Assembly: GCA_021810245.1 (NCBI GenBank)
Contig: JAJZJF010000005.1
Coordinates: 1-50,902, forward strand
Reading direction: 5' to 3'
Origin: a bacterium
GTDB lineage: Bacteria > Elusimicrobiota > Elusimicrobia > UBA1565 > UBA9628
Length of the DNA stretch: 50,902 nt
Position numbers and translations under genes: made by a program. Each line of letters begins with the position of its first letter. Position 1 is the first letter of the stretch. Of this stretch, positions 5,568 through 50,901 are shown one piece after another. Below the pieces are notes generated by a model. It did not search any database, was not told where the DNA came from, and saw only the letters and a list, made by a program, of their open reading frames with translations.

Positions 5568-5576
5568 GCCAGATTC

Positions 5577-37209: not shown

Positions 37210-37295
37210 GTTTTGGCGGAATATTTTTTAACGGAACAGCTCCGCTCTCGAAAAAATCCATTTTCAGAGGGAAAAATGTTAAGATAAACTTCAAC

Positions 37296-37372
37296 GGCGC
37301 GTTCGTCTAGCGGCCCAGGACGCTGCCCTCTCAAGGCAGAGACCACGGGTTCAAATCCCAACGACCCCGCCA
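37296..37372 (+). pseudogene. Chimeric tRNA-Glu pseudogene (att junction)
   Basis: First 64 nt identical to tRNA-Glu, then AACGACCCCGCCA; acceptor and T stems mispaired. Confidence 0.85.
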
Positions 37373-37474
37373 GTTTTCCCCCGACGAAGTTCTTATTTTT
37401 TAAGCGGAATTTCATAGAACTGTCCCTCCTGTTTGGATTGCTGGTTCTTGCTCCTTTTTGTCGCTTTTTGCTCG

Positions 37475-37497
37475 AAAACGCACACTCAAGCGCACAC
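37475..37497. repeat. Putative arm-type site (left end of island 2)
   Basis: AAAACGCACACTCAAGCGCACAC vs AAAACGCACACAAAAGCGCACAC at 50713-50735. Confidence 0.75.
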
Positions 37498-37509
37498 CCA
37501 TTTCGAGCG

Positions 37510-38568
37510 TCATTGAAGTTCTTCAATCCCATAAAAAATTGATTCCTTTTCATCAAAACGTTGCGCCCGATCAAGATAGTGCTGAATTGAATCTGGCGAA
37601 GAATGCCCCAGTTCCGTTTGCAACTGTCGAAAATGCTTGACAACCATGGCCCGGTGAGTGGCGAATGTCCCTCGGAGATCGTAGGACACAGCGGGTTTAT
37701 TGACTCCCGATTTCAGCAGAGCCTTCCTAAAGACACGCGCCAAATAAACTCCGGCATATGGATTCCCAGTTTTTGGATTGCAAAAGAAAAGCCCGCTCAC
37801 GGGGTGGGGAGTAAGACTTTTAAGCAATTCTCCAAAGCGCGGACCAAGTGATTTTATTTTGAGGTAACGGCGTTCATTCTTCCGCGAAGTTTTTTTCCGT
37901 TTTGAATTTAAAAGCCAAACTTCGCCCTTCTCCCAATCAATATTTTCTTTTCCAAATTGGTTCGCTTCTCCAGGCCGCGCTCCTGTCAAAATTCGGAATT
38001 CAAACAAAAATCGCAGATGTTCGGGCAAGCAAATGAGAAGTTTTTCGATTTCTTCTTTTGTAAGCCAAACCTCGGCGCGATTTCCATCCGCAAGACCGAG
38101 TTTCTTAATATCAGCAAGGACGTTACGGCGGATCAGTCCTAAATCCGCCGCATATTGAAGAACCACCCGCAAACATTTGAATTCTTTGAGCACGGTCCCT
38201 TCCGAGCAGCCTGTTTGTTTAACCCCCAGTTTTCCAGAAAGACGCGCGTGCTTAAAGTTTTCCCAATCCTCACGCATAATTTCGTGAAGATTCTTTGGTC
38301 CAAAAAATCTGCATAGCGATTTTACTGTCCAGATTTCACGTTTGCATGAGGAATCTTTCAGTCGATGCTTCGCATTCATTGTAAGATAACGCTCCTGAGC
38401 GAATCTCTCAAAAGTCATCGGCTCTTGGCCTGCCCCTAAATTCGATTCCGCCTGTTGCCCGCCAATTAGGAATTCAGTCAAGGCCGTAATCGGCACAACA
38501 CGGCGAATATAGTTTCCGCCATGTCGGTATTCAAAGCGCACAACATCTCCTTCTTTGACGACGTTCAT
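37510..38568 (-). CDS. int: Tyrosine integrase
   Basis: TGARPGE, SK, YDLRGT (variant of HxLR), LGH, HY. Confidence 0.9.
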   Translation of the reverse strand: MNVVKEGDVVRFEYRHGGNYIRRVVPITALTEFLIGGQQAESNLGAGQEPMTFERFAQERYLTMNAKHRLKDSSCKREIWTVKSLCRFFGPKNLHEIMREDWENFKHARLSGKLGVKQTGCSEGTVLKEFKCLRVVLQYAADLGLIRRNVLADIKKLGLADGNRAEVWLTKEEIEKLLICLPEHLRFLFEFRILTGARPGEANQFGKENIDWEKGEVWLLNSKRKKTSRKNERRYLKIKSLGPRFGELLKSLTPHPVSGLFFCNPKTGNPYAGVYLARVFRKALLKSGVNKPAVSYDLRGTFATHRAMVVKHFRQLQTELGHSSPDSIQHYLDRAQRFDEKESIFYGIEELQ

Positions 38569-38885
38569 TAAGTTTTTCCGTCCACTTGATTTTTTCTTGG
38601 ACGCCCCTTGTAGCTATATCGATGTTGGGAAATATATTTCTCAATTTCTCTTTCCTCAAAGAGACGACGATGTCCGAAATTCGTTGGGTGTAGCCCGAGC
38701 TCTTTCCAATTGTGCGCCAACCAAAAATAAGAATAACCCATTTTTTCCGCCGCCTCTTCCATAGTCAGTAGCCTTGATTTTTGAGAGGCTAATGATGGAA
38801 GCGAAGCTGGGAAAGGATAGGAACCGATGATCTTTCCAGGACACTGGCATGATGGGCAATGCAACGCGGGGGATGCAGCGCTCAC
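38568..38885 (-). CDS. Excisionase-like HTH_17 protein
   Basis: LLTMEEAAEKMGYS...FGHRRLFEEREIEKYI; N-terminal CPSCQC; coupled to int. Confidence 0.8.
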   Translation of the reverse strand: MSAASPALHCPSCQCPGKIIGSYPFPASLPSLASQKSRLLTMEEAAEKMGYSYFWLAHNWKELGLHPTNFGHRRLFEEREIEKYISQHRYSYKGRPRKNQVDGKT

Positions 38886-39070
38886 AAACCACTCCCCAAG
38901 AAATCATCGAACTTCTCCACATTGATCAGCCAAAGTCTGGGACCAAATTTCCGGCAGGGGAGAATCCCCAATCGGCACCAAGACTGAACCGTTTTTTTGC
39001 TGACCCCAAATTTTTGCGCCACATCGGACGGTTTGAGCCAGCGGCAAGGTTTGAATTTTCCTTTTTTCAT
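38882..39070 (-). CDS. Excisionase-like HTH_17 protein
   Basis: WLKPSDVAQKFGVSKKTVQSWCRLGILPCRKFG..W.I; probable start ATG 39070 behind GGAGG. Confidence 0.85.
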   Translation of the reverse strand: MKKGKFKPCRWLKPSDVAQKFGVSKKTVQSWCRLGILPCRKFGPRLWLINVEKFDDFLGSGL

Positions 39071-39076
39071 CACGCC

Positions 39077-39111
39077 CTCCATAGGGGCGCAATGCCTGCG
39101 CCCCTATGGAG
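39077..39111. promoter_or_regulatory. 15-bp perfect hairpin overlapping the RBS of the xis-like gene
   Basis: CTCCATAGGGGCGCA-ATGCC-TGCGCCCCTATGGAG. Confidence 0.7.
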
Positions 39112-39148
39112 ATATACAGCTGAAACAGCCGGATTCGATTTTTCATGT

Positions 39149-39496
39149 TCAATTGTCCGTACGCGCCGACACGCAACTCCAAATTCCGGAATTGTTTTTA
39201 TCCAAGGAACGTAACCCTAAATCCAAATCACGCAGCTCTATTCCCGGCGGTTGGTACAAGTTGAATTCCATGCTCCAATTCATGTCTCTGTCAATGAAAT
39301 TTAATACGTGAAAAGCTTTCCGACGAGCCTCCATGTAAATGGATTGAGCCTCTTTGAAACTTCTATTTCTCAAATCCACAATCGAAATAACCAACATGGA
39401 ATACGGCTTCATGATCATCATAATGGCCTCAGTTTTCAGAACCCTTATCAAACTCGATTTGAGGAAGCTGACGCGCGGCTTCTTCCCCGAATCCAC
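39149..39496 (-). CDS. Hypothetical protein (true start probably near 39420)
   Basis: Co-oriented ORF filling the gap between the DUF2130 and xis-like genes. Confidence 0.5.
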   Translation of the reverse strand: MDSGKKPRVSFLKSSLIRVLKTEAIMMIMKPYSMLVISIVDLRNRSFKEAQSIYMEARRKAFHVLNFIDRDMNWSMEFNLYQPPGIELRDLDLGLRSLDKNNSGIWSCVSARTDN

Positions 39497-40448
39497 CGGT
39501 CAAACTTCGATGAACACCGGCTTCCGCGCTCCAAAGGCCGCGCAATGCCTCGATGATCCGCCGATGCTCGACATTGACCTTTTTCTGAATGTCATTAAGC
39601 CCCTTGACCGCCGCGCTCAAGAATTTCGCCTTTTCTCTCAGATCGAGTTCATAACTGTCCGTCAGGTAAGACTGAATACGCGCGACGACCTCGCTGCCCG
39701 CCCCGTGAACCGCCTTGGCTTCGGCGAGCTTGATGAGCTTCTCGGCTCCATCCAAAATCATGGCCAGAGTGAAGGCAAGATTGCTTCTGTCGATGAGCCA
39801 AACTCTGACTCCGGCACGACGGCACGGCGCGAGGCCGAAACCCGCCGCCCTAAGCTCCTCATTTGGAAAAGCCGAGGAATTCGCCGCGATATAGCCAAAT
39901 TGCGCCTTGTGCCGCAACATGTCGCCCCAGATTTTTTCCGGCCAGTCTCGATTCCAATCGGCGCTCCATTTATCATCCACAATCATCGCGCCAATGCGAG
40001 TCCCGTTCCGATGAACGTGAATAATAACGTCCGTCCCCTTTTTGCCCTGCCCTACTTCTTCGATCTCGCACAAATCGAGCGGCAGATTTTTCTTGAGATA
40101 TTCCCCCAATCCCTCCTCGGCGATGATGCCTTGAACCTGAGCCGATCCAAGACTCAGCTTCGATTCCATTTCCTGTGCGCGAGCCTGAGCTTCCGAAAGT
40201 TTTTTTCGGATTTCCGATATTTCCAGGTCTTTCTTGGCGAATCTCTCTTGAAAGCCACGAATGATTTCGGTTTTGGCCCTGCCCACCGCGATTTTTATTT
40301 TCTCTTCCGCCGCCTCCGCAGCCTTAACTTGTTCTTCCTTCATAAGGCGATTGGCCTCTGCCCGGCCTTCCTCAGCGACCAAGTCCGCGACTTGTTCCTT
40401 AAGGTTTATTCTCGCTCCGCACTTCGGACACTCGATTTTCAAGTTCAT
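39429..40448 (-). CDS. DUF2130-like protein (Zn ribbon, coiled coil, nuclease-like C-terminus)
   Basis: IECPKCG..I.L, S.Q.QG..AE..L, I.EV..G.KG.D.I, DDK.S..W...W..K; start ATG 40448 behind GGAGGAG. Confidence 0.8.
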   Translation of the reverse strand: MNLKIECPKCGARINLKEQVADLVAEEGRAEANRLMKEEQVKAAEAAEEKIKIAVGRAKTEIIRGFQERFAKKDLEISEIRKKLSEAQARAQEMESKLSLGSAQVQGIIAEEGLGEYLKKNLPLDLCEIEEVGQGKKGTDVIIHVHRNGTRIGAMIVDDKWSADWNRDWPEKIWGDMLRHKAQFGYIAANSSAFPNEELRAAGFGLAPCRRAGVRVWLIDRSNLAFTLAMILDGAEKLIKLAEAKAVHGAGSEVVARIQSYLTDSYELDLREKAKFLSAAVKGLNDIQKKVNVEHRRIIEALRGLWSAEAGVHRSLTGGFGEEAARQLPQIEFDKGSEN

Positions 40449-40545
40449 GACATTCTCCTCCCCGTTTTTTCTTTTGAGTTTTTCGTAGCGTCTTTCATGC
40501 ACTAATTTTTTGTAGAATAATCAATAATGTAATGTGCTTACTTAT

Positions 40546-40579
40546 TATGTATTATACATCATAATACATACTTTGTCAA
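40546..40579 (-). promoter_or_regulatory. Consensus sigma70 promoter overlapped by a palindromic operator
   Basis: Minus strand TTGACA (40579-40574), 17 bp, TATAAT (40556-40551); IR TATGTATTAT-5-ATAATACATA (40546-40570). Confidence 0.85.
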
Positions 40580-40589
40580 GGGGAGGAGT

Positions 40590-40745
40590 ATGCGGCAACA
40601 TTCCGAAGAACAGATGATTCGTATTTCAGCGTCAATTCCTAAAAAATTGCATACCAAGGTTATCGAGCGAGCTCATGAAGAACGTCGATCCTTAAGCTCA
40701 GAAATCGTTATCTTGCTAGAGAAAGCTCTTTCTGGAGGGAACTGA
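40590..40745 (+). CDS. Arc-like ribbon-helix-helix repressor (51 aa, below ORF-track cutoff)
   Basis: MRQHSEEQMIRISASIPKKLHTKVIERAHEERRSLSSEIVILLEKALSGGN; SD GGAGGAG. Confidence 0.85.
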   Translation: MRQHSEEQMIRISASIPKKLHTKVIERAHEERRSLSSEIVILLEKALSGGN

Positions 40746-40873
40746 TTTTTTTCAATAATAATATCTATTGACGAAATACCCGGAAAAACGCACCGATGAG
40801 TGGCTGAGTTTATTATGTAATGCCGTTATGTTCATCCGTTTCAACCGAAACGCCAATGGGATAGCCCCGACTG

Positions 40874-41674
40874 AGCTTTCTTATCTTTAAACCCCGGCAG
40901 CGCGGGCGAATTCTTCTATCGTTTGAAAACGTTCCTTGGGGTCGGGCTTTAAACATCGGACAATAATTTCATTGAGACGAACATTGCAGTCGGGTAGAAT
41001 CTCGGTAAGAGGTTTAAAGACGGAGCGCTCCTTTTGCGCCAAAAAGTCCGGGCCGCGGAAGGGGATATCCCCGGTCAAGGCTTCGTAAATGGTCGCCCCC
41101 AAAGAGTAGATGTCCGAGCGCGCATCCCATTTCCCCAAGTGCTGCTCCGGCGACATATAAGCGAAAGTCCCGGCGGTTTCAACTCGGCTCACTCGGCTCA
41201 TCGCGTCCAGCGCCTGACCTGCGATGCCAAAATCCATCACTTTCGCTCCCTCCGCCTTCGTCACCATGATATTGGAGGGCTTTAAATCTCGATGAATCAC
41301 CTTTTTTGAGTGGGCAAAAGCCAGGGCTCTACAAACCCCGCCGAGCACAGACCCCATTTCAGCCGCCGCTAGTTTCCCGTGTTTGGCGATCATTTCCGCC
41401 AAGTTTTGGCCCTCGACATATTCAAAGACCAAATAGACTTCGTTGGATTCCTCTATGATTTCATGGATATCCACAATCGAAGGATGGCGAAGTTGGGCCA
41501 CAATTTTGGCTTCATCCAAAAAGCGAGCTTTCTCCTTGGGATTCATCGCCACCTCGGGACGCATCTTTTTTATCGCGACTCTGCGCCCCAATGAATGATC
41601 TTTTGCCTCATAGACCAATCCCATGCCTCCTTGACCGATTTGGCGCAAAAGCTCGTATTTCCCGGCGATCAGCG
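40874..41674. repeat. Kinase-module duplication, copy 1
   Basis: About 800 bp nearly identical to 43003-43803 (offset 2129). Confidence 0.95.
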
Positions 41675-42944
41675 CGGTGGATTGTCCCTCGCGGGTTTGG
41701 CCCGATGAGGCAACGGTCTCCGCGGTGGAGGGCGGTTTTGTCAATGACGATGGCGCGGTTGATGCGGGAGCGGCGGACGTGGCGGCACTTTGGGGCCGAT
41801 TCTTGCGCTTTAAAACAAATCTCCAAGTCACGAGGAGCAAGAATAAAGCGATTACAACCCCGATTTCTTCCATGGTCTTAATCCGCGCGGCTTCTTGATT
41901 GGCTTGTGCTTCGGCGGCCTTTTGGACTTGCGCCGCATGAGCCGCCGCTGCCGCTCGCGCGGCCTTATTAGAAATCCACACGCGCACATGCTTCGTCCCA
42001 TCCCCAGAGACGATTCGCTTGCCGTCTGGGGAATAACTTACGGAGCGGACATAACTCCCCACATCCTTGGACTTCCACAGCTCTTCACCGCTCATTGCGT
42101 CCCACACGCGCACATGGTTCGTATCATCTCCAGAGACGATTCGCTTGCCGTCCGGGGAATAAGTTACGGAGAAGACAGCGCCCACATCCTTGGACTTCCA
42201 CAACTCTTTCCCGCTCACTGCGTCCCACACGCGCACATGCTGCGTCTCATCCCCAGAAACGATTCGTTTGCCGTCGGGGGAATAACTTACGGAGTTGACA
42301 AAACTCCCCACATCCTTGGACTTCCACTGCTCTTCACCGCTCGCTGCGTCCCACACGCGCACATGGCCGCTATTACCATAATAACCATCCCCGGAGACGA
42401 TTCGCTTGCCGTCAGGGGAATAACTTACGGACCAGACATAACTCCCCACATCCTTGGACTTCCACTGCTCTTCACCGCTCGCTGCGTCCCACACACGCAC
42501 ATGGTCTGTCCAATCCCCAGAGACGATTCGCTTGCCGTCTGGGGAATAACTTACGGAGACGACAGTATTTCCCACATTCTTGGACTCCCACTGCTCTTCA
42601 CCGCTCGCTGCGTCCCACACGCGCACATGGCCGCCATTATCTCCAGAGACGATTCGCTTGCCGTCTGGGGAATAACTTACGGAGACGACAGTATTTCCCA
42701 CATTCTTGGACTCCCACTGCTCTTCACCGCTCGCTGCGTCCCACACGCGCACATGGCCGCCATTATCCCCAGAGACGATTCGCTTGCCGTCTGGGGAATA
42801 ACTTACGGAGACGACAAAATTCCCCACATTCGACGTCCACAGCTCTGTAAACCCTTGCGCGGAAGCGGGCCTTAGAGACGCAAATATAAGACAAAAAAGA
42901 ATAAAGTGAAAACAGATTCTCTTGAACGCCAGTTTGTTGAGCAT
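40887..42944 (-). CDS. Receptor-like Ser/Thr kinase: signal peptide, 7xWD40, TM, Hanks kinase
   Basis: SVSYSPDGKRIVSGD..HVRVWD repeats; TM IGVVIALFLLLVTW; GQGGMG, VAIK, HRDLKPSN, DFG, SPE. Confidence 0.93.
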   Translation of the reverse strand: MLNKLAFKRICFHFILFCLIFASLRPASAQGFTELWTSNVGNFVVSVSYSPDGKRIVSGDNGGHVRVWDAASGEEQWESKNVGNTVVSVSYSPDGKRIVSGDNGGHVRVWDAASGEEQWESKNVGNTVVSVSYSPDGKRIVSGDWTDHVRVWDAASGEEQWKSKDVGSYVWSVSYSPDGKRIVSGDGYYGNSGHVRVWDAASGEEQWKSKDVGSFVNSVSYSPDGKRIVSGDETQHVRVWDAVSGKELWKSKDVGAVFSVTYSPDGKRIVSGDDTNHVRVWDAMSGEELWKSKDVGSYVRSVSYSPDGKRIVSGDGTKHVRVWISNKAARAAAAAHAAQVQKAAEAQANQEAARIKTMEEIGVVIALFLLLVTWRFVLKRKNRPQSAATSAAPASTAPSSLTKPPSTAETVASSGQTREGQSTALIAGKYELLRQIGQGGMGLVYEAKDHSLGRRVAIKKMRPEVAMNPKEKARFLDEAKIVAQLRHPSIVDIHEIIEESNEVYLVFEYVEGQNLAEMIAKHGKLAAAEMGSVLGGVCRALAFAHSKKVIHRDLKPSNIMVTKAEGAKVMDFGIAGQALDAMSRVSRVETAGTFAYMSPEQHLGKWDARSDIYSLGATIYEALTGDIPFRGPDFLAQKERSVFKPLTEILPDCNVRLNEIIVRCLKPDPKERFQTIEEFARAAGV
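41980..42845 (-). repeat. Seven highly identical ~126-bp WD40-coding repeats
   Basis: Period 126 bp (e.g. 42541 vs 42667); one unit has a 12-bp insertion, one a 3-bp deletion. Confidence 0.95.
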
Positions 42945-43002
42945 TAGGACAATTTTATAACATGTGGAAACACTCCTAAAATTTTCTTACAAGATAATTT
43001 TC

Positions 43003-43803
43003 AGCTTTCTTATCTTTAAACCCCGGCGGCGCGGGCGAATTCTTCTATCGTTTGAAAACGTTCCTTGGGATCGGGCTTTAAACATCGGACAATAATTTCA
43101 TTGAGACGAACATTGCAGTCGGGTAGAATCTCGGTAAGAGGTTTAAAGACGGAGCGCTCCTTTTGCGCCAAAAAGTCCGGGCCGCGGAAGGGGATATCCC
43201 CGGTCAAGGCTTCGTAAATGGTCGCCCCCAAAGAGTAGATGTCCGAGCGCGCATCCCATTTCCCCAAGTGCTGCTCCGGCGACATATAAGCGAAAGTCCC
43301 GGCGGTTTCAACTCGGCTCACTCGGCTCATCGCGTCCAGCGCCTGACCTGCGATGCCAAAATCCATCACTTTCGCTCCCTCCGCCTTCGTCACCATGATA
43401 TTGGAGGGCTTTAAATCTCGATGAATCACCTTTTTTGAGTGGGCAAAAGCCAGGGCTCTACAAACCCCGCCGAGCACAGACCCCATTTCAGCCGCCGCTA
43501 GTTTCCCGTGTTTGGCGATCATTTCCGCCAAGTTTTGGCCCTCGACATATTCAAAGACCAAATAGACTTCGTTGGATTCCTCTATGATTTCATGGATATC
43601 CACAATCGAAGGATGGCGAAGTTGGGCCACAATTTTGGCTTCATCCAAAAAGCGAGCTTTCTCCTTGGGATTCATCGCCACCTCGGGACGCATCTTTTTT
43701 ATCGCGACTCTGCGCCCCAATGAATGATCTTTTGCCTCATAGACCAATCCCATGCCTCCTTGGCCGATTTGGCGCAAAAGCTCGTATTTGCCGGCTATGA
43801 GCG
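43003..43803. repeat. Kinase-module duplication, copy 2
   Basis: Nearly identical to 40874-41674. Confidence 0.95.
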
Positions 43804-44320
43804 TCTTGTTTTCGGACACGGTAGGTTTTTGTATTTCCGACACGATACAGGTTTGCTTGGGCTCTGGGTTTGGATTAGAGGGGACTTGAAGGACGGATGC
43901 GCCACCCTTAGTTGGAAGCCATTTCCTAGCCTCGTCTCGATTGATTTCTTCTGCGCAGCGATAAGCTCTATACATACCCAAAATCCAGAAGATGAGTATG
44001 ACTAGCAAGAATAGTGGTACGAAAAAGATGTATATGGCCGACACCAATAATTTTAGACTGGAGTTGGGTAGTATGGCTAACAGGAATGCTAGCCCTAAGA
44101 TGGGTATGGCTAGCAGGAATGGTAACATCAGGAACTTAAGGCCCATAAAAATCCCATCTCTGGCTTTTCCTAAATAAATATGCCCCAGTCCGGGCCAGAG
44201 TGAAGATAAGAGTGCCGCAATGAGAGGTATTTTTAAGTTTTTCTCATAGCCACATTTTAGACACACCGTCGCTCTATCTGAGGCTTCTGTTTTGCATTCG
44301 GGACATTGAAGCATCGGCAT
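43016..44320 (-). CDS. Membrane Ser/Thr kinase: Zn ribbon, TM2-like multi-TM domain, Hanks kinase
   Basis: CPEC..CLKCG; AALLS.LWPGLGHIYLG; kinase protein sequence identical to that of 40887-42944. Confidence 0.92.
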   Translation of the reverse strand: MPMLQCPECKTEASDRATVCLKCGYEKNLKIPLIAALLSSLWPGLGHIYLGKARDGIFMGLKFLMLPFLLAIPILGLAFLLAILPNSSLKLLVSAIYIFFVPLFLLVILIFWILGMYRAYRCAEEINRDEARKWLPTKGGASVLQVPSNPNPEPKQTCIVSEIQKPTVSENKTLIAGKYELLRQIGQGGMGLVYEAKDHSLGRRVAIKKMRPEVAMNPKEKARFLDEAKIVAQLRHPSIVDIHEIIEESNEVYLVFEYVEGQNLAEMIAKHGKLAAAEMGSVLGGVCRALAFAHSKKVIHRDLKPSNIMVTKAEGAKVMDFGIAGQALDAMSRVSRVETAGTFAYMSPEQHLGKWDARSDIYSLGATIYEALTGDIPFRGPDFLAQKERSVFKPLTEILPDCNVRLNEIIVRCLKPDPKERFQTIEEFARAAGV

Positions 44321-44445
44321 AAAACACCTTCCTATTTCTCCTCATTGGTGCGTCTTTTTCCCAACTTGATGTTACCAAGCCGGGGAAATCGCCTCAACTT
44401 TTTTCAACTATTATCGTGACATGCTCCCTTGACGCGCTCATGATT

Positions 44446-45168
44446 TTATTGGCAGAGAATCTCAATATTACCATCATTTATAAGTTCATAGACGCCGATT
44501 TGCAATTTTTGGATGAGTTTTTTGAGCTTGGGACGGAGATTGATTTTATTTACTTCCTTTGCTTCCTTCAGCGCAAGGCAACCTTCTGGTTTCCCCTGAA
44601 GAAGAACCGCTTTATAAATCTCGGACTGGGGATTTGTGTTAAAGTCGCATCGAAATTTTTCAGGGTCAAGTTGCAGATAATAGGTCTCAATCTCAAGGAC
44701 AGTTTTTAGAAGCGTATCACTCGTGTTGTTCAACTTGAATTCAATCAGGTAAAAGCTATTCTTTGATTCATTGTAGGTCACCAAATCGATTTTCCCGGCT
44801 CTGTCTCCACGTATATTTTTTAGAGGAACCTGATATTCTATCACCTTGCCTAGCGTGCCTAGTTTGGCCTTAGTATTGAACAGGCATCCTGCATACTGCT
44901 CTTCCTTCCTATTACTTTTGGTTTTCTGGAACTTTGCCCCCAGGTGAGGATTATAAGTCTCTTCCCGCGAGATGGTTCCTATTCCTTTCAGCCACCCGGA
45001 GTTCTTTTTCTCCAACAGCAGTCCTGCAATAATCTCGGAAGAGAGTTCGTTAGAATCATTCGTTCTACCGCTCCAATTGACACAGTCTGCCTTATAGATG
45101 GTTTCAGGTTTTTTGATGCTCTCCGCTATCTTGTTCTGCACCTGCTTACAATTATATTTTTTAGGCAT
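44446..45168 (-). CDS. PD-(D/E)XK nuclease-like hypothetical protein
   Basis: EE...EYQVPL...GKIDLV...LIEFK...LEIETY; low GC; SD AGGGAGG. Confidence 0.65.
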   Translation of the reverse strand: MPKKYNCKQVQNKIAESIKKPETIYKADCVNWSGRTNDSNELSSEIIAGLLLEKKNSGWLKGIGTISREETYNPHLGAKFQKTKSNRKEEQYAGCLFNTKAKLGTLGKVIEYQVPLKNIRGDRAGKIDLVTYNESKNSFYLIEFKLNNTSDTLLKTVLEIETYYLQLDPEKFRCDFNTNPQSEIYKAVLLQGKPEGCLALKEAKEVNKINLRPKLKKLIQKLQIGVYELINDGNIEILCQ

Positions 45169-45220
45169 ATTTCCTCCCTTATTTTATTTGTTTTTACGGT
45201 GATGAAGGGGAGATTCATTT

Positions 45221-46798
45221 TCATTTAACCCCTCTCAGTTTCTCCGTGAGAAATTTGGATATCCGAAACAAGACGCGGCTTGTGGATTTTGTTTTGGCTT
45301 GATGGGACCTCATGGCGCTGCTCTTGGCAGCGGGGCCATCGGAATCAAAAACGGGTTCGCCGTTGGGAAGGGCGTAGAGAGAAAGCGCGCTTTGCGCCCA
45401 TCCTTGGTAGAGGTCATAGTCGCCGACTTTTTGGCTGCTATCCTGGATGGAGACCAGGAGCAGATAGTCCGCATGAAGATCCACGGCTTTTTGAATCCTG
45501 GACTTTAAATTCATCGCGCGGCCCGGTATTTCCATTCCGCTAAACCCCTGGGAAACCAAGACTCTTTTAATGGAGGTGGCCAGTTTCTCTCGCAGGTTCT
45601 CATCTGGAGCCAACGCCGCAAAGGCGACGGAACGCGCCTTAATGAGGTCCACCGTGCATTGGGGGGCCGAGAAAAAACGGGGAATAGAGCCTGTTTTAAA
45701 AAGGGCGGCTCCGTCCACCTCGACTTGAAGAGTGGCGCGAGATTGGGAAGGGTCTATGCGCACGATGGGAATCTGGGCCAAGCCGCGGGAGTCCGTCATG
45801 AGCGCATGTCTCGCGAGTGTCCCGCGTCCTTCTGAAAAATCAGACTTAAGAGAAAGACCCTTGATGGGAACGTGAATTCCGCCGCGAGCGTCTTTGTAGG
45901 AAGCCTCAATTTGCGGGCTCTGATTAATCTTCCCCTCAGCGCTATAGGTGATACGGTTGGGATGAGCGGCAAGCGAAATATTCTCAAGAATGCCGCTGAT
46001 TTTTCCGGCCAGAAAACTTTGCATTTCCTGTTTGCGTTTGTCCATGCGCATTTCGACGGGGCTTTCTCCCCAATAACCGGAAAGAGTGTTTTGAGCCAAG
46101 ATCAAGTCCCGCAAACCGCTCATCACGCGCTTAGATGCCAGTTCTTTTTCGCCCTCTTCCGCGAGGCCTTCAACCCGCTCCTTTTTGAGGGAGAGCTGCT
46201 TCTCCGCTATCTCGTGGTATTTCTTTTGAGGAACGGAAAGGAGAACATCCACAAATCCCTTCTGAGGATAATCCAGAAATTTTTTGATCGCAAGATAAAG
46301 ACTGTTTTCCGGATCGGCCAAAACAAGATGCGTTCTCAAATCTATAGCGTCTTCAATTTGCTCTTTCTCCACATGAGAGGAACCGGAAGCGTTATAGCTG
46401 TATCGACTTTGAGATTGAGAGGTGATGGTCACTTGGATGCGCTTAGCCAGCCGCTCAAGGGCCAAGCTATAGGCTTTGTCATAAGCCTCCTCGGCATGCC
46501 CTTTGTGGATTTCCGCCGAGGCGTCTGCGGCATAGTAGTCCGGATCATGCTCCAGCTTCTCAATCAAGGCTCCAATGTCGGGAGGATTCTGAACGGGAGC
46601 CGCGAGAGGTTTGACGCCGGGTTTAGCTGTAGTTTGAGAGGGGGAAAAATTGGAAAGATGCTCTTGGGCTTGTTGCGCCTGATTTTCAAGAGAGGATTCG
46701 GAATCGGAAGGAGATGTATTTTGGGATTTCAGATGAGGAGTTATCATCAAACACAAGGCCAAGGCGCAAAAAACAGCGAGACGTTTTTTATTGGTCAT
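45221..46798 (-). CDS. Secreted LPP20-like domain protein
   Basis: Start ATG 46798 (ATGA overlap); signal peptide MTNKKRLAVFCALALCL; 'A...A...AL..LA..I.V.I.S' LPP20-like helix-strand pattern. Confidence 0.6.
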   Translation of the reverse strand: MTNKKRLAVFCALALCLMITPHLKSQNTSPSDSESSLENQAQQAQEHLSNFSPSQTTAKPGVKPLAAPVQNPPDIGALIEKLEHDPDYYAADASAEIHKGHAEEAYDKAYSLALERLAKRIQVTITSQSQSRYSYNASGSSHVEKEQIEDAIDLRTHLVLADPENSLYLAIKKFLDYPQKGFVDVLLSVPQKKYHEIAEKQLSLKKERVEGLAEEGEKELASKRVMSGLRDLILAQNTLSGYWGESPVEMRMDKRKQEMQSFLAGKISGILENISLAAHPNRITYSAEGKINQSPQIEASYKDARGGIHVPIKGLSLKSDFSEGRGTLARHALMTDSRGLAQIPIVRIDPSQSRATLQVEVDGAALFKTGSIPRFFSAPQCTVDLIKARSVAFAALAPDENLREKLATSIKRVLVSQGFSGMEIPGRAMNLKSRIQKAVDLHADYLLLVSIQDSSQKVGDYDLYQGWAQSALSLYALPNGEPVFDSDGPAAKSSAMRSHQAKTKSTSRVLFRISKFLTEKLRGVK

Positions 46799-48609
46799 GC
46801 TTTCTCCCTGGCCCGATAAGAGAGACCTTTGTATTCCAAGGTGGCGCCGGGATAAAGAACTTGGCACTTCCCGGGAGTGATAAAAAGGAGAGCGGCCTCT
46901 GAAACAACGAAGCGGCAACGACCGCCATTGCGGGGCATAAGTCCAAGATCGCTTGCATCGCAAGGGATTTCCTGAATCGGGCAAAAAACGTCGTGCTTTT
47001 TGCTGGAAAGGACGAGGCCCAGCAGCTGCCGCGCCGTTTGCGGCTGTTTGACCGTCAAATTAACCGGCGCGGAATCTGAGGCCAATCGAGTTTCTAAAGT
47101 CGGCGCGGCGCCTGAAAATAAACCAATCTGATACTCAACGGCGCCACCGAGATTGAGGATGTCGCCATCTTCCAGGCGCGAACGCGTCAGCGCTTCTCCA
47201 CGGTGTTTGGTTCCATTGGTGCTGTCCAAATCCTCGGCAACTACAGAATTTCCCATCAGACTGATTTTGAGGTGCTTGCGGCTGATCCGCTCGTCATCAA
47301 TCTCGATATCGGTCTCAATGCGGCCTATTGTCAAAACATCGGCTTTAATAATGATAATTTTCTTCCCCACTTTCTCTGGGATAAGAAAGAGACGATGGGT
47401 TTTGCGTGAGTCCTCCAGATCGCGCCTGAGCGCTCCGGCGCGGGAATTGACGGGATTGAGGCTGAGAGCTTTCTCGATATTATCCTGCGCCGCGCGGACA
47501 TCGTTTTCGGATAGATTTCTATGCGCCGCTTCAATCAAATCATTGGAACGCGCAATTTTATCTTGCGCCAAGCGGGCAACTTCTCCTTCAAGCCGATTAT
47601 AGATGGCTTTGAGGCCTGGATGGTAGGGAAGAAGCGTTTTTAAACGATCGCCATTGTCGATATCTTCAGGGATAAGCGTTTTCCCTGATGACTGCGACTC
47701 GCGCAGCGCCAGATCAAGTTTTTTATATTCAACCTGAGCTTGTTGAAATTTCTGGGGATCTCCACCGGTCCAATCCATCAGCCTTTGGCGAAAGGCATAG
47801 AGATCGTTGTTGTCTGGCAACACCCACAGGCAGGAATCAACGAGGCGCAAGGCGGCCATGACATCCCCATTTCCCCAATAGCGCTCAAGGCTTTCAAAGG
47901 CCGATGGAAGTCCCTGAACCATCCGGCGGCGTTTCAACGTGAAATAAAATTCCTGTCCAATGAGAAAAATAAAACAGCAGGCGAAAAGGGTGGAAGAGGT
48001 TTTAAACCCTGAACGGACATTGCGGCGTGTCTGAAGAAAACGGCTTGAGAGCCCCGGCGGAGTCAATGCGCTGGCGGCTGAAATAAGAATTTTCCCACGA
48101 GCGTCTAAAATGCGAATTTCGGCCTCGTAATCGAGGAGCATTCCAGGCACTGGGCGTAAACGGGCTTGAGACACATAGACGCTTTTTAATTTCCCCGCTT
48201 CGACGATCCGGAGAACCGCCTCCGGATCCACCAATCCCTTTTTCATAAGGACATTGACTTGTGAGACTAATTGGGACATGTCCGCCGCCGGCGCGAGCAA
48301 TCGCCAACCGGGATAGCCGATGAGCGTGGCATTGAGGTCGTCTTTAAGCGCCTGCAGATTGGGGATGTCATCGGAATTTCTAGCGGAGATATTGATCTCG
48401 TCAATGGAGGCCAGCCCTCCGTGCAATTTTAGATGAGCCGCTTGTTTTTGAATGCTGCGCGAAAGCGCCTGAAGGGCTGGTCCCATGGGAATAAAGGGCG
48501 GCGGCGGAACCGATAGATTTTGCCAGGCCCAGGCGGATAAAATAAGAAAAACCGCCATTGCCGACATAAGAATTTTACGGCGCTTGCCGTAAATATCGGG
48601 CAAAGACAT
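46795..48609 (-). CDS. Membrane FHA-domain protein with TPR-like region
   Basis: Two TMs; TIGR, ISRKH, DLDSTNGT, L.DGD FHA motifs. Confidence 0.88.
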   Translation of the reverse strand: MSLPDIYGKRRKILMSAMAVFLILSAWAWQNLSVPPPPFIPMGPALQALSRSIQKQAAHLKLHGGLASIDEINISARNSDDIPNLQALKDDLNATLIGYPGWRLLAPAADMSQLVSQVNVLMKKGLVDPEAVLRIVEAGKLKSVYVSQARLRPVPGMLLDYEAEIRILDARGKILISAASALTPPGLSSRFLQTRRNVRSGFKTSSTLFACCFIFLIGQEFYFTLKRRRMVQGLPSAFESLERYWGNGDVMAALRLVDSCLWVLPDNNDLYAFRQRLMDWTGGDPQKFQQAQVEYKKLDLALRESQSSGKTLIPEDIDNGDRLKTLLPYHPGLKAIYNRLEGEVARLAQDKIARSNDLIEAAHRNLSENDVRAAQDNIEKALSLNPVNSRAGALRRDLEDSRKTHRLFLIPEKVGKKIIIIKADVLTIGRIETDIEIDDERISRKHLKISLMGNSVVAEDLDSTNGTKHRGEALTRSRLEDGDILNLGGAVEYQIGLFSGAAPTLETRLASDSAPVNLTVKQPQTARQLLGLVLSSKKHDVFCPIQEIPCDASDLGLMPRNGGRCRFVVSEAALLFITPGKCQVLYPGATLEYKGLSYRAREKA

Positions 48610-48670
48610 TCTACACCCTCCCGTCGCTTTTAAATGTCAGTTCAGCGGTATTAATAGAATCCTGACAAGT

Positions 48671-48698
48671 AGTGTAACAGGAATTGTTGATTTGTCAA
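48671..48698 (-). promoter_or_regulatory. Candidate promoter of the FHA/kinase cassette
   Basis: Minus strand TTGACA, 16 bp, TACACT, flanked by the TGACAA/TTGTCA inverted repeat (48663-48697). Confidence 0.45.
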
Positions 48699-49133: not shown

Positions 49134-50696
49134 TTACGTCGCGGACAGCATTCGCTTGGAATTAAGCCGCAGTCTGCCATTTTTCTTTTCAATAATGAAC
49201 CGAGTCAAATCCTCGGCTCTGAATCGACGTCCCTTGCCGATTTCAACGGAAGGCAATATTCCTTGGGCGGCCAGCCGGGAAATCATGCTAGGGTCTTTGT
49301 ATCCGAGAATAGCCGCGGCTTCTTCAGCCGTGAAAAGAGCGGCGAGTGCAGTCACTTCGTTTTTGAGAAACACGGTGCGCGAACCGATTTTAAAGGGATG
49401 AAGATGCTCAGCCTTAATCCACCCCACGTAAAGCTGCGTCCGATGAATTCTCAACTTGGCGCAGGTCTCGGCCACGCTGTAGAATAAATCTTTCGCCGAA
49501 TCCGAATTCAAATTCGTCTCAAGCGCGGCGTCTAATCCCTCCAGTCTCGCCTCGTCCAACTCAAGACCGCTCAACTTTAAGGCATGACGGAAAAGTTCCA
49601 AACGGATCGCTTTGTCCGGCCATGCTTGAGCGGGAAGCGTTTTCGCGGGGCCGCCGCTTCCAAAGCGGCGCCCATAATCTTCAAGCAAATCTTTTTCCTT
49701 GAAGTTGTAGTACGCCAGAGTCTCCTCGACATTCATATGCCGCGCCAGTTTTTGAACTCTCTTGGCATCCAGGCCGGATTCAACCCATTCGCTAATCCTT
49801 GTGTGGCGCAGATAATGAGTGCGCCCGACATATTCATGAGGCAAGCCCGCTTCTTGCGCCATCGGAATATAGACTTGATCCCGGTAGACCGCGCTGCTGA
49901 GAGCTTTGCCTTTTTTATTGCAGAAGATGACTCTGCCGACTACTTTTTTTGATTTTGGCGTCAAAACCTCCTCCGCCTCTATATTTTTTTGCCCCAGATA
50001 TTTATCGCGCGCGTCCAAATACCGTTTAAGATATCCGCAACCCAAAGGAGTCAAATAGGCCGTATCCTCAAACCCTGCGGCACGGTCTTTTGATTCACGG
50101 ATTACGATGGGAACAATCCCGCCGGGGTTCTGCCTAGACCAGAGAATGTCCTTTTCCGATAGGCGCGCGACTTCGGAAGCGCGCAAAGCCGCGTCATACT
50201 GAACCGCGATCATCGCCTTATCTCGAAGGTATAAGAATCTTCCCTCATCATTGAGACTAGACAATCGTTTTTCATCTATACCTAAAAGTCCATCGCGCTC
50301 ATCCGAACTTAAACGACGATATTCTTCATCTTTGATCGGCGCGGGAGCTTTGACGCCCCTCGCGATGTTTTCTGGAATCAAGCCCTGGCTATGCGCGGCT
50401 TTGAACAGACCTTTTAGATTCATCAGCAAAACTCGAATAGTCCGAGTTTTTATTTCACCCGCAGCTTGCCGCAGATCCAGGCTTTTCCGCAGATCCTGGA
50501 AGTCCTCGACATTAAAATCGCTGAGACTTTTCAGGACTCGCCCGGGGTGGGCTTTAACGATCTCGCGACAAAGCGCCGCGAAAGCGTTGCGATAGCCGTC
50601 TGCCGTCCCTGGACTTAAGGGTTCGCCGCTCCGCTGGTGGCGATAGTCAGAAATCACTTGCTCAAGCTGGGTTGAAAGGCTCTTTTGCGTTTTCAT
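49134..50696 (-). CDS. Tyrosine recombinase with two C-terminal excisionase-like HTH domains
   Basis: ALRASE, SK, HYLRHT, ARH, YY; then YSVAETCAKL.. and FTAEEAAAILG..G.LP...G..RRF; start ATG 50696 behind GGAGG. Confidence 0.88.
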   Translation of the reverse strand: MKTQKSLSTQLEQVISDYRHQRSGEPLSPGTADGYRNAFAALCREIVKAHPGRVLKSLSDFNVEDFQDLRKSLDLRQAAGEIKTRTIRVLLMNLKGLFKAAHSQGLIPENIARGVKAPAPIKDEEYRRLSSDERDGLLGIDEKRLSSLNDEGRFLYLRDKAMIAVQYDAALRASEVARLSEKDILWSRQNPGGIVPIVIRESKDRAAGFEDTAYLTPLGCGYLKRYLDARDKYLGQKNIEAEEVLTPKSKKVVGRVIFCNKKGKALSSAVYRDQVYIPMAQEAGLPHEYVGRTHYLRHTRISEWVESGLDAKRVQKLARHMNVEETLAYYNFKEKDLLEDYGRRFGSGGPAKTLPAQAWPDKAIRLELFRHALKLSGLELDEARLEGLDAALETNLNSDSAKDLFYSVAETCAKLRIHRTQLYVGWIKAEHLHPFKIGSRTVFLKNEVTALAALFTAEEAAAILGYKDPSMISRLAAQGILPSVEIGKGRRFRAEDLTRFIIEKKNGRLRLNSKRMLSAT

Positions 50697-50712
50697 AGAG
50701 CCTCCGGAGACA

Positions 50713-50735
50713 AAAACGCACACAAAAGCGCACAC
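50713..50735. repeat. Putative arm-type site (right end of island 2)
   Basis: Matches 37475-37497. Confidence 0.75.
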
Positions 50736-50824
50736 TTAAAAATGGCTATTTTATGGGAAGCGCATTCCCCGTATTCTCGAAAAAATCCATTTTCAGAGGG
50801 AAAAATGTTAAGATAAACTTCAAC

Positions 50825-50901
50825 GGCGCGTTCGTCTAGCGGCCCAGGACGCTGCCCTCTCAAGGCAGAGACCACGGGTTCAAATCCCGTACGCGCCACC
50901 A
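50825..50901 (+). tRNA. tRNA-Glu(CTC)
   Basis: GGCGCGT..CTGCC-CT-CTC-AA-GGCAG..ACGGG-TTCAAAT-CCCGT-ACGCGCC-A-CCA; extended -10 TGTTAAGAT at 50806-50814. Confidence 0.97.

What the first reader, a model, noticed from the sequence alone, without database searches (positions are those of the whole stretch)
40874..43803. One kinase module, two unrelated sensor N-termini
Seen: about 800 bp, from the LIAGKY codons to 13 bp past the stop codon, is duplicated. By eye there are only a handful of synonymous differences, all near the edges, and the protein is identical. The upstream parts are unrelated (WD40 vs Zn ribbon/TM2-like, the latter more AT-rich). Inferred: very recent domain shuffling or ongoing gene conversion, with the kinase as a constant region and swappable variable regions. 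Recombination between the copies would delete the 2129-bp WD40 receptor unit or amplify it.
Basis: partly seen in the sequence, partly recalled or inferred. Interest (0 to 1): 0.75.

Follow-up and report, generated by a model that had tools for sequence, protein, structure and literature searches.

The report
Two receptor kinases sharing one module
Two neighbouring bacterial receptor-kinase genes on a mobile island carry the same 800-base kinase-coding piece behind unrelated sensor parts, most likely because one gene is a young fusion that copied its neighbour's kinase and recombination has since kept the copies alike; it is a clear but ordinary kind of gene evolution.

Summary
Window 40874-41674 and 43003-43803 are an 801-bp direct repeat 2129 bp apart, with 795 of 801 bases identical. 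All 6 differences are synonymous third-position changes within 68 bp of a repeat end, and the 692-bp core is identical.

The repeat encodes the C-terminal Hanks-type kinase domain, plus 13 bp past the stop, of two adjacent minus-strand genes:
- WD40K: signal peptide, 7 WD40 blades, a TM helix, then the kinase.
- ZnK: Zn ribbon, a DUF6677-like membrane part, then the kinase.

Contigs from four runs of one study hold all four copy-specific junctions. They also hold a collapsed 734-bp core at about twice the flank depth.

ZnK's 172-aa N-terminus is collinear with complete stand-alone small proteins, and no other hit carried a kinase. The module's GC3 matches WD40K.

Best reading: ZnK is a chimera that copied WD40K's kinase module, and later gene conversion homogenised the core.

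Both genes lie on a 13.4-kb island at tRNA-Glu that same-genus genomes lack, beside a conserved FHA/p587 pair.

No dedicated "swappable cassette" mechanism is shown. In all 33 kinase genes examined in relatives the kinase domain is C-terminal, and nearly all carry varied N-terminal regions. Interest is moderate.

The parts
40874..41674 (-). Repeat copy 1: the kinase module (codons 425-685) of WD40K, its stop codon and 13 bp downstream
43003..43803 (-). Repeat copy 2: the kinase module (codons 174-434) of ZnK, its stop codon and 13 bp downstream
40942..41633 (-). Perfectly identical 692-bp core of copy 1 (partner 43071-43762). This is the proposed gene-conversion tract.
   Evidence: In one search a 734-bp Logan contig (40900-41633 or 43029-43762) is present in 4 of 4 runs.
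40887..42944 (-). WD40K, 685 aa: signal-peptide-like N-terminus, 7 near-identical WD40 blades, one TM helix (about 360-378), an S/T/A/P-rich linker, and a C-terminal Hanks-type kinase (430-674)
   Evidence: (Pkinase E 1e-54; WD40 E 9.7e-40, 7 stretches)
43016..44320 (-). ZnK, 434 aa (432 aa from the second ATG): Zn ribbon, a DUF6677/TM2-like membrane part with two strong hydrophobic peaks (66-84, 96-114), a linker, and a C-terminal kinase (179-423). Proposed chimeric gene.
42945..43002 (-). 58-bp spacer between repeat copy 2 and the WD40K start. 58 + 2058 + 13 = 2129, the repeat period.
   Evidence: arithmetic on coordinates
41976..42817 (-). Internal 123-138-bp blade repeats of the WD40 sensor. 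Blades 1-3 share about 190 nt of near-perfect identity at offset 126.
   Evidence: A 643-aa variant with one blade fewer exists (P0002).
37246..37359 (+). Left copy of the island's 114-bp perfect direct repeat: 50 bp upstream plus the first 64 nt of tRNA-Glu, followed by a non-matching 3' end (pseudo-tRNA)
50775..50888 (+). Right copy of the 114-bp direct repeat. It is part of the intact tRNA-Glu(CTC) at 50825-50901.
37510..38568 (-). Tyrosine integrase 1, at the island's left end
   Evidence: (Phage_integrase E 5e-14)
38882..39082 (-). Excisionase-like HTH_17 protein, 66 aa
   Evidence: (HTH_17 E 6e-11)
39429..40502 (-). 357-aa protein just downstream of WD40K; DUF2130-like (a lead only)
   Evidence: feature score 0.95; structure TM 0.57; no Pfam hit at E 0.01
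44446..45168 (-). 240-aa conserved hypothetical protein upstream of ZnK, with a restriction-endonuclease-like lead. Its GC3 of 0.47 resembles ZnK's N-terminus.
45221..46798 (-). p587, an exported protein of unknown family. The probable true start is the ATG at 46798-46796, which precedes a signal-peptide-like segment and overlaps the stop of the FHA gene by 2 bases (the sequence reads ATGA). It is a conserved neighbour of the FHA protein and kinases in other Elusimicrobiota.
46795..48609 (-). FHA604: a membrane protein with a C-terminal FHA (phosphothreonine-binding) domain. It is the likely reader or substrate of the kinases.
   Evidence: (FHA E 7e-14)
49134..50735 (-). Tyrosine integrase 2 with C-terminal HTH_17, next to tRNA-Glu

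Best explanation
ZnK is a young chimeric receptor-kinase gene. A complete small Zn-ribbon/DUF6677 membrane-protein gene lost its stop codon and became joined in frame to a copy of the last 801 bp of the neighbouring WD40K gene, that is the whole kinase domain, the stop codon and 13 bp beyond.

The simplest route has two steps. First, a tandem duplication of the 2129-bp WD40K unit (58 bp upstream, the 2058-bp gene, 13 bp downstream). Second, a deletion that removed the upstream copy's sensor, TM and linker together with the end of the small gene. A one-step duplicative insertion of the 801 bp is an alternative route.

Since then, homologous recombination (RecA-type gene conversion) between the two direct copies has erased all differences in the 692-bp core. 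The outer 41-68 bp are rarely included in conversion tracts because homology is needed on both sides, and they have drifted, but only at synonymous sites. That implies both kinase copies are under purifying selection.

Functionally (inferred, not shown), two different sensors drive the same catalytic module and hence the same substrates. One sensor is a probably periplasmic WD40 propeller; the other is a small membrane/Zn-ribbon module. The most likely substrate or reader is the FHA-domain membrane protein encoded three genes upstream of ZnK in the same strand block, which is a conserved neighbour of such kinases in this phylum.

The whole block is cargo of a 13.4-kb integrase-bearing island at tRNA-Glu.
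For: Shown:
- The repeat, its coordinates and the 6 of 6 synonymous differences confined to the edges.
- The clustering has P about 3e-5. P(6 of 6 synonymous) is about 1.8e-4 if changes were unconstrained, because 23.7% of possible changes in the edge codons are synonymous.
- Sharp boundaries with no residual similarity outside the repeat.
- Period 2129 = 58 + 2058 + 13 (coordinates).
- ZnK's N-terminus: a word-based search of 238-760-aa proteins found only itself. A full HMMER search of 1.84 billion representatives gave 153 hits at E<=1e-3. The best after itself are stand-alone proteins of 174 aa (E 7.5e-11) and 188 aa, which align collinearly over its whole 172 aa including the tail. All 16 listed hits of 340 aa or more lack Pkinase.
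- WD40-type N-terminus with a C-terminal kinase occurs elsewhere, for example L003 in G019 and P0016, P0038, P0052, P0087.
- GC3: module 0.59, WD40K sensor 0.61, WD40K linker 0.61, ZnK N-terminus 0.47, neighbouring gene p240 0.47.
- Two real copies: four copy-specific junction contigs in 4 of 4 runs with 0 differences. The single-SNP bubble at 40941 resolved to the copy-1 allele in two runs and to the copy-2 allele in the other two, with no other differences, which argues against hidden core variants. Core contig depth is about 2x.
- In the closest related cluster (G322), the tandem pair next to the p587 homologue has unrelated N-termini and kinase domains only 52% identical. That is too diverged for homologous conversion to have made identity from old paralogues.
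- In three tandem kinase pairs of other genera, the kinase part has lower synonymous divergence than the alignable N-terminal part: dS 0.19, 0.40 and 0.51 against 0.82, 1.44 and 0.98. The share of identical codons at identical residues is mostly 0.8-0.96 against about 0.5-0.65. Homogenisation of kinase modules may therefore be common in this clade.
- FHA604-like genes adjoin p587-like genes in 4 other loci, and kinase genes lie within a few kb in 3 loci.
Against: - No read or contig spans the 692-bp core, so the tandem order rests on the original assembler. The four runs are one study and possibly the source sample.
- The tool warns that contig depth is not a copy number.
- The direction WD40K to ZnK rests on architecture rarity and on a GC3 difference of about 2.3 standard errors from 130 codons. 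Hydrophobic membrane segments are AT-rich for amino-acid reasons, although GC3 is less affected.
- The N-terminus is short and fast-evolving (best relative 35% identical), so kinase-bearing relatives could be missed.
- In G322 the small Zn-ribbon/TM gene lies after the kinase pair, not before it, and matches ZnK only in the Zn ribbon (E 3e-5 for that one pairwise comparison).
- The lower dS in relatives' kinase domains may be inflated by misalignment of the N-terminal parts.
- ZnK's membrane topology is unresolved: two strong hydrophobic peaks plus a weaker one. An odd number of spans would put the kinase outside the cell.
- No expression data and no biochemical data exist. The link to the FHA protein is by neighbourhood only.
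Confidence: 0.6

Rival explanations
1. Two old paralogous kinase genes, each with its own long-standing sensor, whose kinase domains were made identical purely by gene conversion, with no recent fusion event.
For: Tandem pairs of C-terminal kinase genes are common in related genomes. In some pairs the kinase domain is far more alike than the N-terminus: 93% vs 46%, 86% vs 44%, 80% vs 50%. Those kinase parts also have lower dS. The core/edge pattern is what conversion produces.
Against: Conversion needs pre-existing nucleotide homology. The nearest comparable pair with unrelated sensors (G322) is only 52% identical in protein. The Zn-ribbon/DUF6677 plus kinase architecture was found nowhere else. 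ZnK's N-terminus is a whole stand-alone protein from end to end. Both boundaries are sharp, and the 3' one lies 13 bp beyond the stop in non-coding DNA.
Confidence: 0.12
2. One very recent duplication/fusion and nothing since. On this view the six edge differences are chance, local mutation at the junctions, or strain variants captured by the assembler.
For: 795 of 801 identical bases is compatible with a very young copy. Only six differences exist, so any pattern rests on few events. Assemblers treat variants within one k-mer of a repeat boundary differently from interior ones (reasoning, not a call).
Against: Six of six differences in the outer 109 bp has P about 3e-5. The same alleles occur with 0 differences in 4 of 4 runs. 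If interior variants had been collapsed, the bubble choice that varied between runs at 40941 should also have produced mismatches elsewhere in the 734-bp contigs, and none was seen. All six are synonymous, which suggests time under selection rather than junction damage.
Confidence: 0.15
3. Assembly artefact. On this view there is only one kinase module in the genome, or the contig is a chimera of two strains or elements joined through a shared kinase sequence, or the 2129-bp unit exists as a separate circle or array.
For: The genome is a 152-contig metagenome bin. No contig spans the core. k-mer graphs cannot tell flank-R-X-R-flank from flank-R-flank plus a circular R-X.
Against: Four distinct junction pieces, each carrying copy-specific alleles, occur in 4 of 4 runs. 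The core contig has about 2x the depth of the flank contigs, and the sensor-specific pieces (426 bp, 272 bp) have depth like the flanks in three runs. A 2.1-kb circle without replication functions at the same abundance as the chromosome in four samples is unlikely. Another assembly holds a complete WD40K variant on a 17.3-kb contig, and ZnK occurs on contigs up to 126 kb.
Confidence: 0.05

Closest known systems
Concerted evolution of bacterial paralogues by gene conversion (rRNA operons; tufA/tufB, recalled; survey in PMC6053082, abstract seen)
   Same: Two copies in one genome are far more alike (99.25% DNA) than either is to the nearest relative elsewhere (69% protein). The centre is identical and the edges diverge.
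   Different: Here only a domain-sized part of each gene is homogenised. The rest of the two genes is unrelated, so the unit of concerted evolution is a module, not a gene. Conversion itself is inferred, not observed.
Chimeric genes made by duplication and deletion between neighbouring genes (for example PMC13626634, abstract seen: paralogue pairs merged into hybrids by large deletions in E. coli evolution experiments)
   Same: A new reading frame is built by joining the 5' part of one gene to the 3' part of another through rearrangement of adjacent DNA.
   Different: Those cases recombine homologous paralogues and lose one copy. Here the partners are non-homologous, the donor gene is kept intact, and the junction is illegitimate.
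Bacterial Hanks-type receptor Ser/Thr kinases (PknB/PrkC with PASTA; Planctomycetota STKs with periplasmic WD40 or TPR arrays, PMC11032199, passages seen)
   Same: A Pkinase catalytic domain with the usual motifs: GxGxxG, VAIK, HRDLKPSN, DFG and an SPE-type activation-loop end (read from the translations; motif names recalled). There is a single TM helix and a repeat-domain sensor predicted to lie outside the membrane.
   Different: The orientation is reversed. In those families the kinase is N-terminal and the TM and sensor C-terminal. Here the sensor and TM come first and the kinase is at the extreme C-terminus.
Eukaryotic receptor(-like) kinases, and the single bacterial family 'CCM1' with the TM N-terminal to the kinase (bioRxiv 10.1101/2025.01.12.632604, passages seen: this organisation occurs in 1 of 42 bacterial STK families)
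   Same: The order is sensor, TM, then cytoplasmic C-terminal kinase. CCM1 members are also described with an FHA association. Plant RLK families likewise expand by tandem duplication (recalled).
   Different: Membership in CCM1 could not be tested, because the family models and the preprint's supplements were not available to me. No descent from eukaryotic kinases is implied.
Recently amplified beta-propellers (PMC6805158, PMC9218822; abstracts seen)
   Same: The WD40 sensor has 7 blades with nearly identical scaffolds, and a 6-blade variant exists. This matches ongoing amplification from single blades.
   Different: This concerns the sensor only. It is a second, independent repeat process in the same gene.

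Membership tests
Hanks-type (eukaryote-like) Ser/Thr protein kinase, Pfam PF00069 | Significant match over the full catalytic-domain profile | tested here: met
   Pkinase E 1e-54 (profile 1-253 of 263) for WD40K and 3.9e-55 for ZnK, both above the curated cut-off
Hanks-type (eukaryote-like) Ser/Thr protein kinase, Pfam PF00069 | Catalytic motifs present (glycine loop, VAIK lysine, HRD...N catalytic loop, DFG) | tested here: met
   GQGGMG, VAIKK, HRDLKPSN and MDFG are visible in both translations. Motif definitions are recalled; activity was not assayed.
WD40 beta-propeller | Multiple WD40 repeats sufficient for a closed propeller | tested here: met
   PF00400 E 9.7e-40 with 7 stretches. Seven blades of 41-46 aa were listed. 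The fold itself was not modelled.
tRNA-integrated genomic island | Flanking direct repeats that include part of a tRNA gene | tested here: met
   114-bp perfect repeat at 37246-37359 and 50775-50888; intact tRNA-Glu at 50825-50901
tRNA-integrated genomic island | Integrase gene(s) inside the repeats, and an empty site in relatives | tested here: met
   Two Phage_integrase proteins. In same-genus G005 the acyltransferase gene is followed directly by tRNA-Glu. p587 was found in 0 of 5 same-genus genomes. FHA604 gave only weak FHA-domain matches there, in 4 of 5 genomes.
Gene conversion / concerted evolution | Paralogues more alike than their relatives in other genomes | tested here: met
   99.25% DNA identity within the genome against a best outside module of 69% protein identity
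Gene conversion / concerted evolution | A tract with significantly fewer differences than adjacent homologous sequence | tested here: met
   0 differences in 692 bp against 6 in 109 bp; P about 3e-5. Only six events underlie this.
Gene conversion / concerted evolution | A conversion event observed directly (donor and recipient states in related strains) | not testable with these tools
   No second strain with the locus could be fetched. The metagenome scan found only a 33% relative, and the cluster look-up could not be made.
Kinase-based anti-phage defence (PADLOC PD-T4-6, MADS mad6, BREX PglW) | A specific match beyond the generic kinase domain, or the system's partner genes | tested here: inconclusive
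   Both proteins hit many PD-T4-6 models (best E 4e-81) and mad6, but only over the kinase domain. NCBIfam scores are far below the curated cut-offs: MAD6 164 vs 460, PglW 116-119 vs 990. No partner genes of those systems were found among the 10 island proteins scanned.
Cassette-type variable-region switching (constant module plus silent exchangeable cassettes) | Additional promoter-less cassettes, or further genes sharing the constant module | tested here: not met
   There are only two copies of the module in the 2.03-Mb genome, and both are complete genes. No third partner appeared at more than 69% identity among proteins of 238-760 aa (longer and shorter proteins were not searched).

The most novel reading that the evidence does not exclude
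Elusimicrobiota may run a receptor-kinase system built in the eukaryote-like order (sensor, membrane, C-terminal kinase) whose sensor repertoire is renewed inside tandem gene arrays. On this reading new sensors, even whole small membrane proteins, are captured by fusion to a copy of a resident kinase module. Gene conversion then keeps the modules uniform, so every sensor feeds the same FHA-based output or can cross-activate its neighbour. Such arrays can travel on integrative islands. The window would be this process caught just after a capture event.
Probability: 0.2. Interest if true: 0.65.

Novelty: new member of a known kind. Interest (0 to 1): 0.4.

Why it matters
New multidomain signalling proteins are usually inferred from old, diverged examples. 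Here donor and product sit side by side with the copied part still identical. That allows the junctions, the direction of copying and the later homogenisation to be read directly.

The locus also offers a natural experiment: one catalytic domain behind two unrelated sensors, next to a candidate phosphothreonine reader.

It points as well to an under-described habit of this phylum. In all 33 kinase genes examined in relatives the kinase domain is C-terminal, an orientation reported for only 1 of 42 bacterial kinase families (10.1101/2025.01.12.632604, passages seen).

The processes involved, partial duplication, fusion and gene conversion, are well known. The value is therefore as a clean example and a lead, not as a new principle.

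Tried and rejected
- Cluster look-up for P0001-P0003 could not be made because the database was off. I could not see on which other contigs the two proteins lie.
- The metagenome scan with ZnK returned only one 33% relative. Records of the same genome may be left out.
- Earlier-findings look-ups returned nothing.
- The search with the WD40K N-terminus gave only the 6-blade variant and generic WD40 proteins at 32-50% identity, so it says nothing about origin.
- The promoter/terminator scan of 40300-45300 gave 9 promoter-like sites against 5.1 expected and 3 terminator-like sites against 5.6 expected, with no terminator-like site in the 71-bp gap between the two genes. I drew nothing from it.
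- PADLOC hits are generic kinase matches. The defence reading is not adopted.
- I searched for a third internal att copy that would split the island into two tandem elements. Only a 23-bp 91% match near the left end turned up, so this is not supported.
- I looked for residual homology beyond the repeat ends and found none. This removed the idea of a longer, decayed duplication.
- The p240 protein and the 230-aa protein at the same position in G322 are unrelated.
- In the read-laying output, parts of the stretch show zero depth in some runs, because each collapsed core contig is placed at only one of its two equivalent places. I treat this as no evidence of absence.
- Some short WD40 contigs have depths of 0.55-0.8x or about 1.5x the flank. 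With 29 records not shown, I could not turn this into a statement about blade-number polymorphism.
- Paper searches for gene conversion among bacterial Ser/Thr kinases and for Elusimicrobia kinases found nothing specific. One search was a mistyped term.


Full report
**The observation**

Two minus-strand genes lie head to tail. WD40K is at 40887-42944 (685 aa) and ZnK is at 43016-44320 (434 aa). An in-register comparison at offset 2129 shows near-perfect identity from 40874 to 41674 against 43003 to 43803 and background outside. blastn gives 801 bp at 99.25%, and the repeat finder reports the same pair.

The six differences are at 40899, 40941, 41634, 41661, 41667 and 41670. All are third-position synonymous changes, so 261 encoded residues are identical. 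The repeat includes the stop codon and 13 bp beyond it.

The core of 692 bp is perfect. Six differences placed at random in 801 bp would leave so long a run with P about 3e-5. Outside the repeat, in-register identity is 17-40% per 30 nt. A local alignment of the 240 nt upstream is no better than shuffles, with 149 of 500 shuffles reaching the observed score. The boundaries are therefore sharp.

**Is it real?**

The window is a whole contig of a 2.03-Mb, 152-contig genome bin with GC 0.49. By the source names of its best protein hits it is an Elusimicrobiota bacterium. The DNA is held by four runs of one mine-drainage study.

Logan contigs of all four runs, laid on 40300-44600, contain these pieces:
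- A 3600-bp piece ending at 40929.
- A 426-bp piece at 41604-42029.
- A 272-bp piece at 42787-43058.
- A 7072-bp piece starting at 43733.

Each piece has 0 differences and carries the copy-specific edge alleles. There is also one 734-bp piece that fits either 40900-41633 or 43029-43762. That core piece has about twice the depth of the flank pieces in each run: 88.7 vs 46.9/48.7, 53.5 vs 29.8/30.3, 41.5 vs 24.5/26.6, and 23.9 vs 14.3/15.1.

The one interior difference inside the 734 bp (40941) was resolved to the copy-1 allele in two runs and to the copy-2 allele in two. No other mismatch appeared, which argues against further hidden differences in the core.

Three cautions apply. The tool states that contig depth is not a copy number. 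The runs may be the source of the window. No piece spans the core, so the order of the junctions rests on the original assembly.

The protein database also holds ZnK, from its second ATG, on 4 contigs up to 126 kb. It holds a WD40K variant of 643 aa on a 17.3-kb contig.

**What the genes are**

Both C-terminal parts are full Hanks-type kinase domains (Pkinase E about 1e-54). The usual catalytic motifs are visible in the translations (motif names recalled).

WD40K has a signal-peptide-like start and seven WD40 blades. It then has one strong hydrophobic helix at about 360-378 and an S/T/A/P-rich linker before the kinase. ZnK starts with a Zn ribbon and a DUF6677/TM2-like membrane part, with weak Pfam hits and two strong hydrophobic peaks. 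The two N-termini are unrelated.

**Where they sit**

A 114-bp perfect direct repeat occurs at 37246-37359 and 50775-50888. It consists of 50 bp of upstream sequence plus the first 64 nt of tRNA-Glu(CTC). The right copy belongs to the intact tRNA.

In the same-genus genome G005, the acyltransferase gene that ends at 37209 in the window is followed directly by tRNA-Glu. G003 has a remnant of an integrase-2-like gene there. The 13.4 kb between the repeats is therefore an integrated island. From left to right it holds:
- Integrase 1.
- An excisionase-like HTH protein.
- A DUF2130-like protein.
- WD40K, then ZnK.
- A 240-aa hypothetical protein.
- p587, an exported protein.
- A 604-aa membrane protein with an FHA domain.
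- Integrase 2.

The five same-genus genomes have no close homologue of the kinase (best E about 1e-63). They have no p587 (0 of 5) and only weak FHA-domain matches.

**Origin of the shared module**

Three searches bear on ZnK's N-terminus:
- A word-based search among proteins of 238-760 aa found only ZnK itself.
- A full HMMER search of 1.84 billion representatives gave 153 hits at E<=1e-3 (150 listed). The only one with a kinase is ZnK itself. The next best are stand-alone proteins of 174 aa (E 7.5e-11) and 188 aa.
- All 16 listed hits of 340 aa or more were scanned, and none has a kinase domain. They are fusions with signal peptidase, TPR or PD40 domains, or repeats of the DUF6677/TM2 or Zn-ribbon parts alone.

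In alignment, ZnK's 172 N-terminal residues are collinear with these small proteins from the Zn ribbon to the C-terminal tail. ZnK therefore looks like a whole small membrane protein with a kinase appended.

WD40-type sensors in front of a C-terminal kinase do occur elsewhere. GC3 of the module (0.59) matches WD40K's sensor and linker (0.61 each). It does not match ZnK's N-terminus (0.47) or the next gene upstream (0.47).

The period of 2129 bp equals 58 bp of upstream spacer plus the 2058-bp gene plus 13 bp downstream. The simplest history is a tandem duplication of the whole WD40K unit, followed by a deletion that joined the small gene in frame to the kinase module of the upstream copy. A one-step duplicative insertion of the 801 bp would give the same two junctions.

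**Why conversion as well**

A single copy event followed by drift would scatter differences. Instead, 6 differences lie in the outer 109 bp and none lies in 692 bp. The edge divergence is purely synonymous. Only 23.7% of possible changes in those codons are synonymous, so six of six has P about 1.8e-4 without constraint. This suggests that both copies have been kept working for some time.

Homologous recombination that repeatedly copies one core onto the other explains the pattern, because it cannot easily include the last tens of bases of homology. That property is established knowledge of conversion between repeats; it is recalled, not tested here.

The conversion-only rival (old paralogues, no fusion) fits poorly. 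In the closest related cluster (G322, p587 homologue 49% identical), the two adjacent kinases have unrelated sensors, a Zn-ribbon/PQQ-type propeller and ankyrin repeats. Their kinase domains are only 52% identical.

**Relatives and generality**

I examined 9 tandem-array loci and 11 best-hit loci from related genomes. In all 33 kinase genes found there the kinase lies at the extreme C-terminus. Where an N-terminal region is present it is diverse: multi-TM, REC-like, WD40+TM, TPR/Sel1+TM, ATPase-like and others. One of the 33 has only 18 residues before the kinase.

Tandem partners have kinase domains 43-93% identical against 21-53% for their N-termini. In three pairs the kinase part has lower dS: 0.19, 0.40 and 0.51 against 0.82, 1.44 and 0.98. 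The kinase parts also have a higher share of identical codons at identical residues. This hints that module homogenisation is not unique to the window. However, alignment quality in the N-terminal parts limits the inference.

I found no other sensor joined to this particular module. The best outside module is 69% identical.

**Function (inferred)**

FHA604-like genes adjoin p587-like genes in four other loci, and kinase genes lie within a few kb in three loci. In the window, the probable p587 start overlaps the FHA gene's stop by two bases, reading ATGA (coordinates). The likely circuit is two receptors with one catalytic specificity that phosphorylate, or are read by, the FHA membrane protein. 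This is neighbourhood evidence only.

ZnK's topology is unresolved. Defence-system models hit only the generic kinase domain, and NCBIfam scores lie far below the curated cut-offs.

**Comparison with the literature**

A preprint atlas of bacterial Ser/Thr kinases states two things. The commonest architecture is a kinase followed by a C-terminal TM. A TM placed N-terminal to the kinase occurs in only 1 of 42 families, CCM1 (10.1101/2025.01.12.632604, passages). Its supplements were not available, so I could not test membership.

Planctomycetota kinases carry periplasmic WD40 or TPR arrays, but at the C-terminal end (PMC11032199, passages).

Three further papers give context, each seen only as a search listing and abstract:
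- Concerted evolution in prokaryotes (PMC6053082).
- Chimeric genes formed by deletion between paralogues (PMC13626634).
- Continuous amplification of propeller blades (PMC6805158, PMC9218822).

My two searches for gene conversion among bacterial Ser/Thr kinases or for Elusimicrobia kinases found nothing specific.

**Verdict**

This is a new, clean instance of known processes in an uncultured bacterium. Assembly order and all functional statements remain to be tested. Interest is 0.4.

Noticed in passing
window 37246-37359 and 50775-50888 (island 37360-50774): A 13.4-kb integrative island at tRNA-Glu(CTC), flanked by a 114-bp perfect direct repeat. It has two tyrosine integrases, one at each end, and a pseudo-tRNA 3' end at the left copy. 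Same-genus G005 has the empty site. G003 has an integrase-2-like remnant (84% over 118 aa) at the same tRNA, so this is a recurrent integration site.
   Followed up: yes
window 45221-48609; loci L035, L036, L037, L029, L030: A membrane FHA-domain protein and an exported about-525-aa protein of no known family (p587) are neighbours in the window and in 4 other Elusimicrobiota loci. C-terminal kinase genes lie nearby in 3 loci, and in the window the two genes overlap by ATGA. This looks like a conserved, undescribed signalling cluster.
   Followed up: partly
window 41976-42817 (WD40K codons about 35-330): The seven WD40 blades share an almost invariant scaffold (VSYSPDGKRIVSGD...HVRVWDA.SGEE). 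They differ mainly in two short loops. Blades 1-3 are near-identical in DNA over about 190 nt, and a database variant (P0002, 643 aa) has exactly one 42-aa blade fewer. Blade number may vary in the population or between assemblies.
   Followed up: partly
loci L002-L012 and L016-L024 (related genomes): In all 33 kinase genes examined in relatives the kinase domain lies at the extreme C-terminus. They are often in tandem arrays of 2-3 genes, with N-terminal sensors of many kinds. This is the orientation typical of eukaryotic receptor kinases and is said to be rare in bacteria (1 of 42 families in a preprint atlas).
   Followed up: partly
L035 (G322:C10) 2148-6546: The closest related cluster has a Zn-ribbon + PQQ-type propeller + kinase gene (69% to the module) and an ankyrin + kinase gene. 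These are followed by a 154-aa double-Zn-ribbon protein with a hydrophobic C-terminal segment (read by eye from the translation; Pfam gives only the Zn ribbons). Small Zn-ribbon membrane-protein genes may be regular neighbours of these kinases.
   Followed up: partly
window 39429-40502 and 44446-45168: The genes flanking the kinase pair are a DUF2130-like protein (357 aa, no Pfam hit at E 0.01, Atlas lead only) and a well-folding 240-aa conserved hypothetical with a restriction-endonuclease-like lead. Neither function is known.
   Followed up: partly
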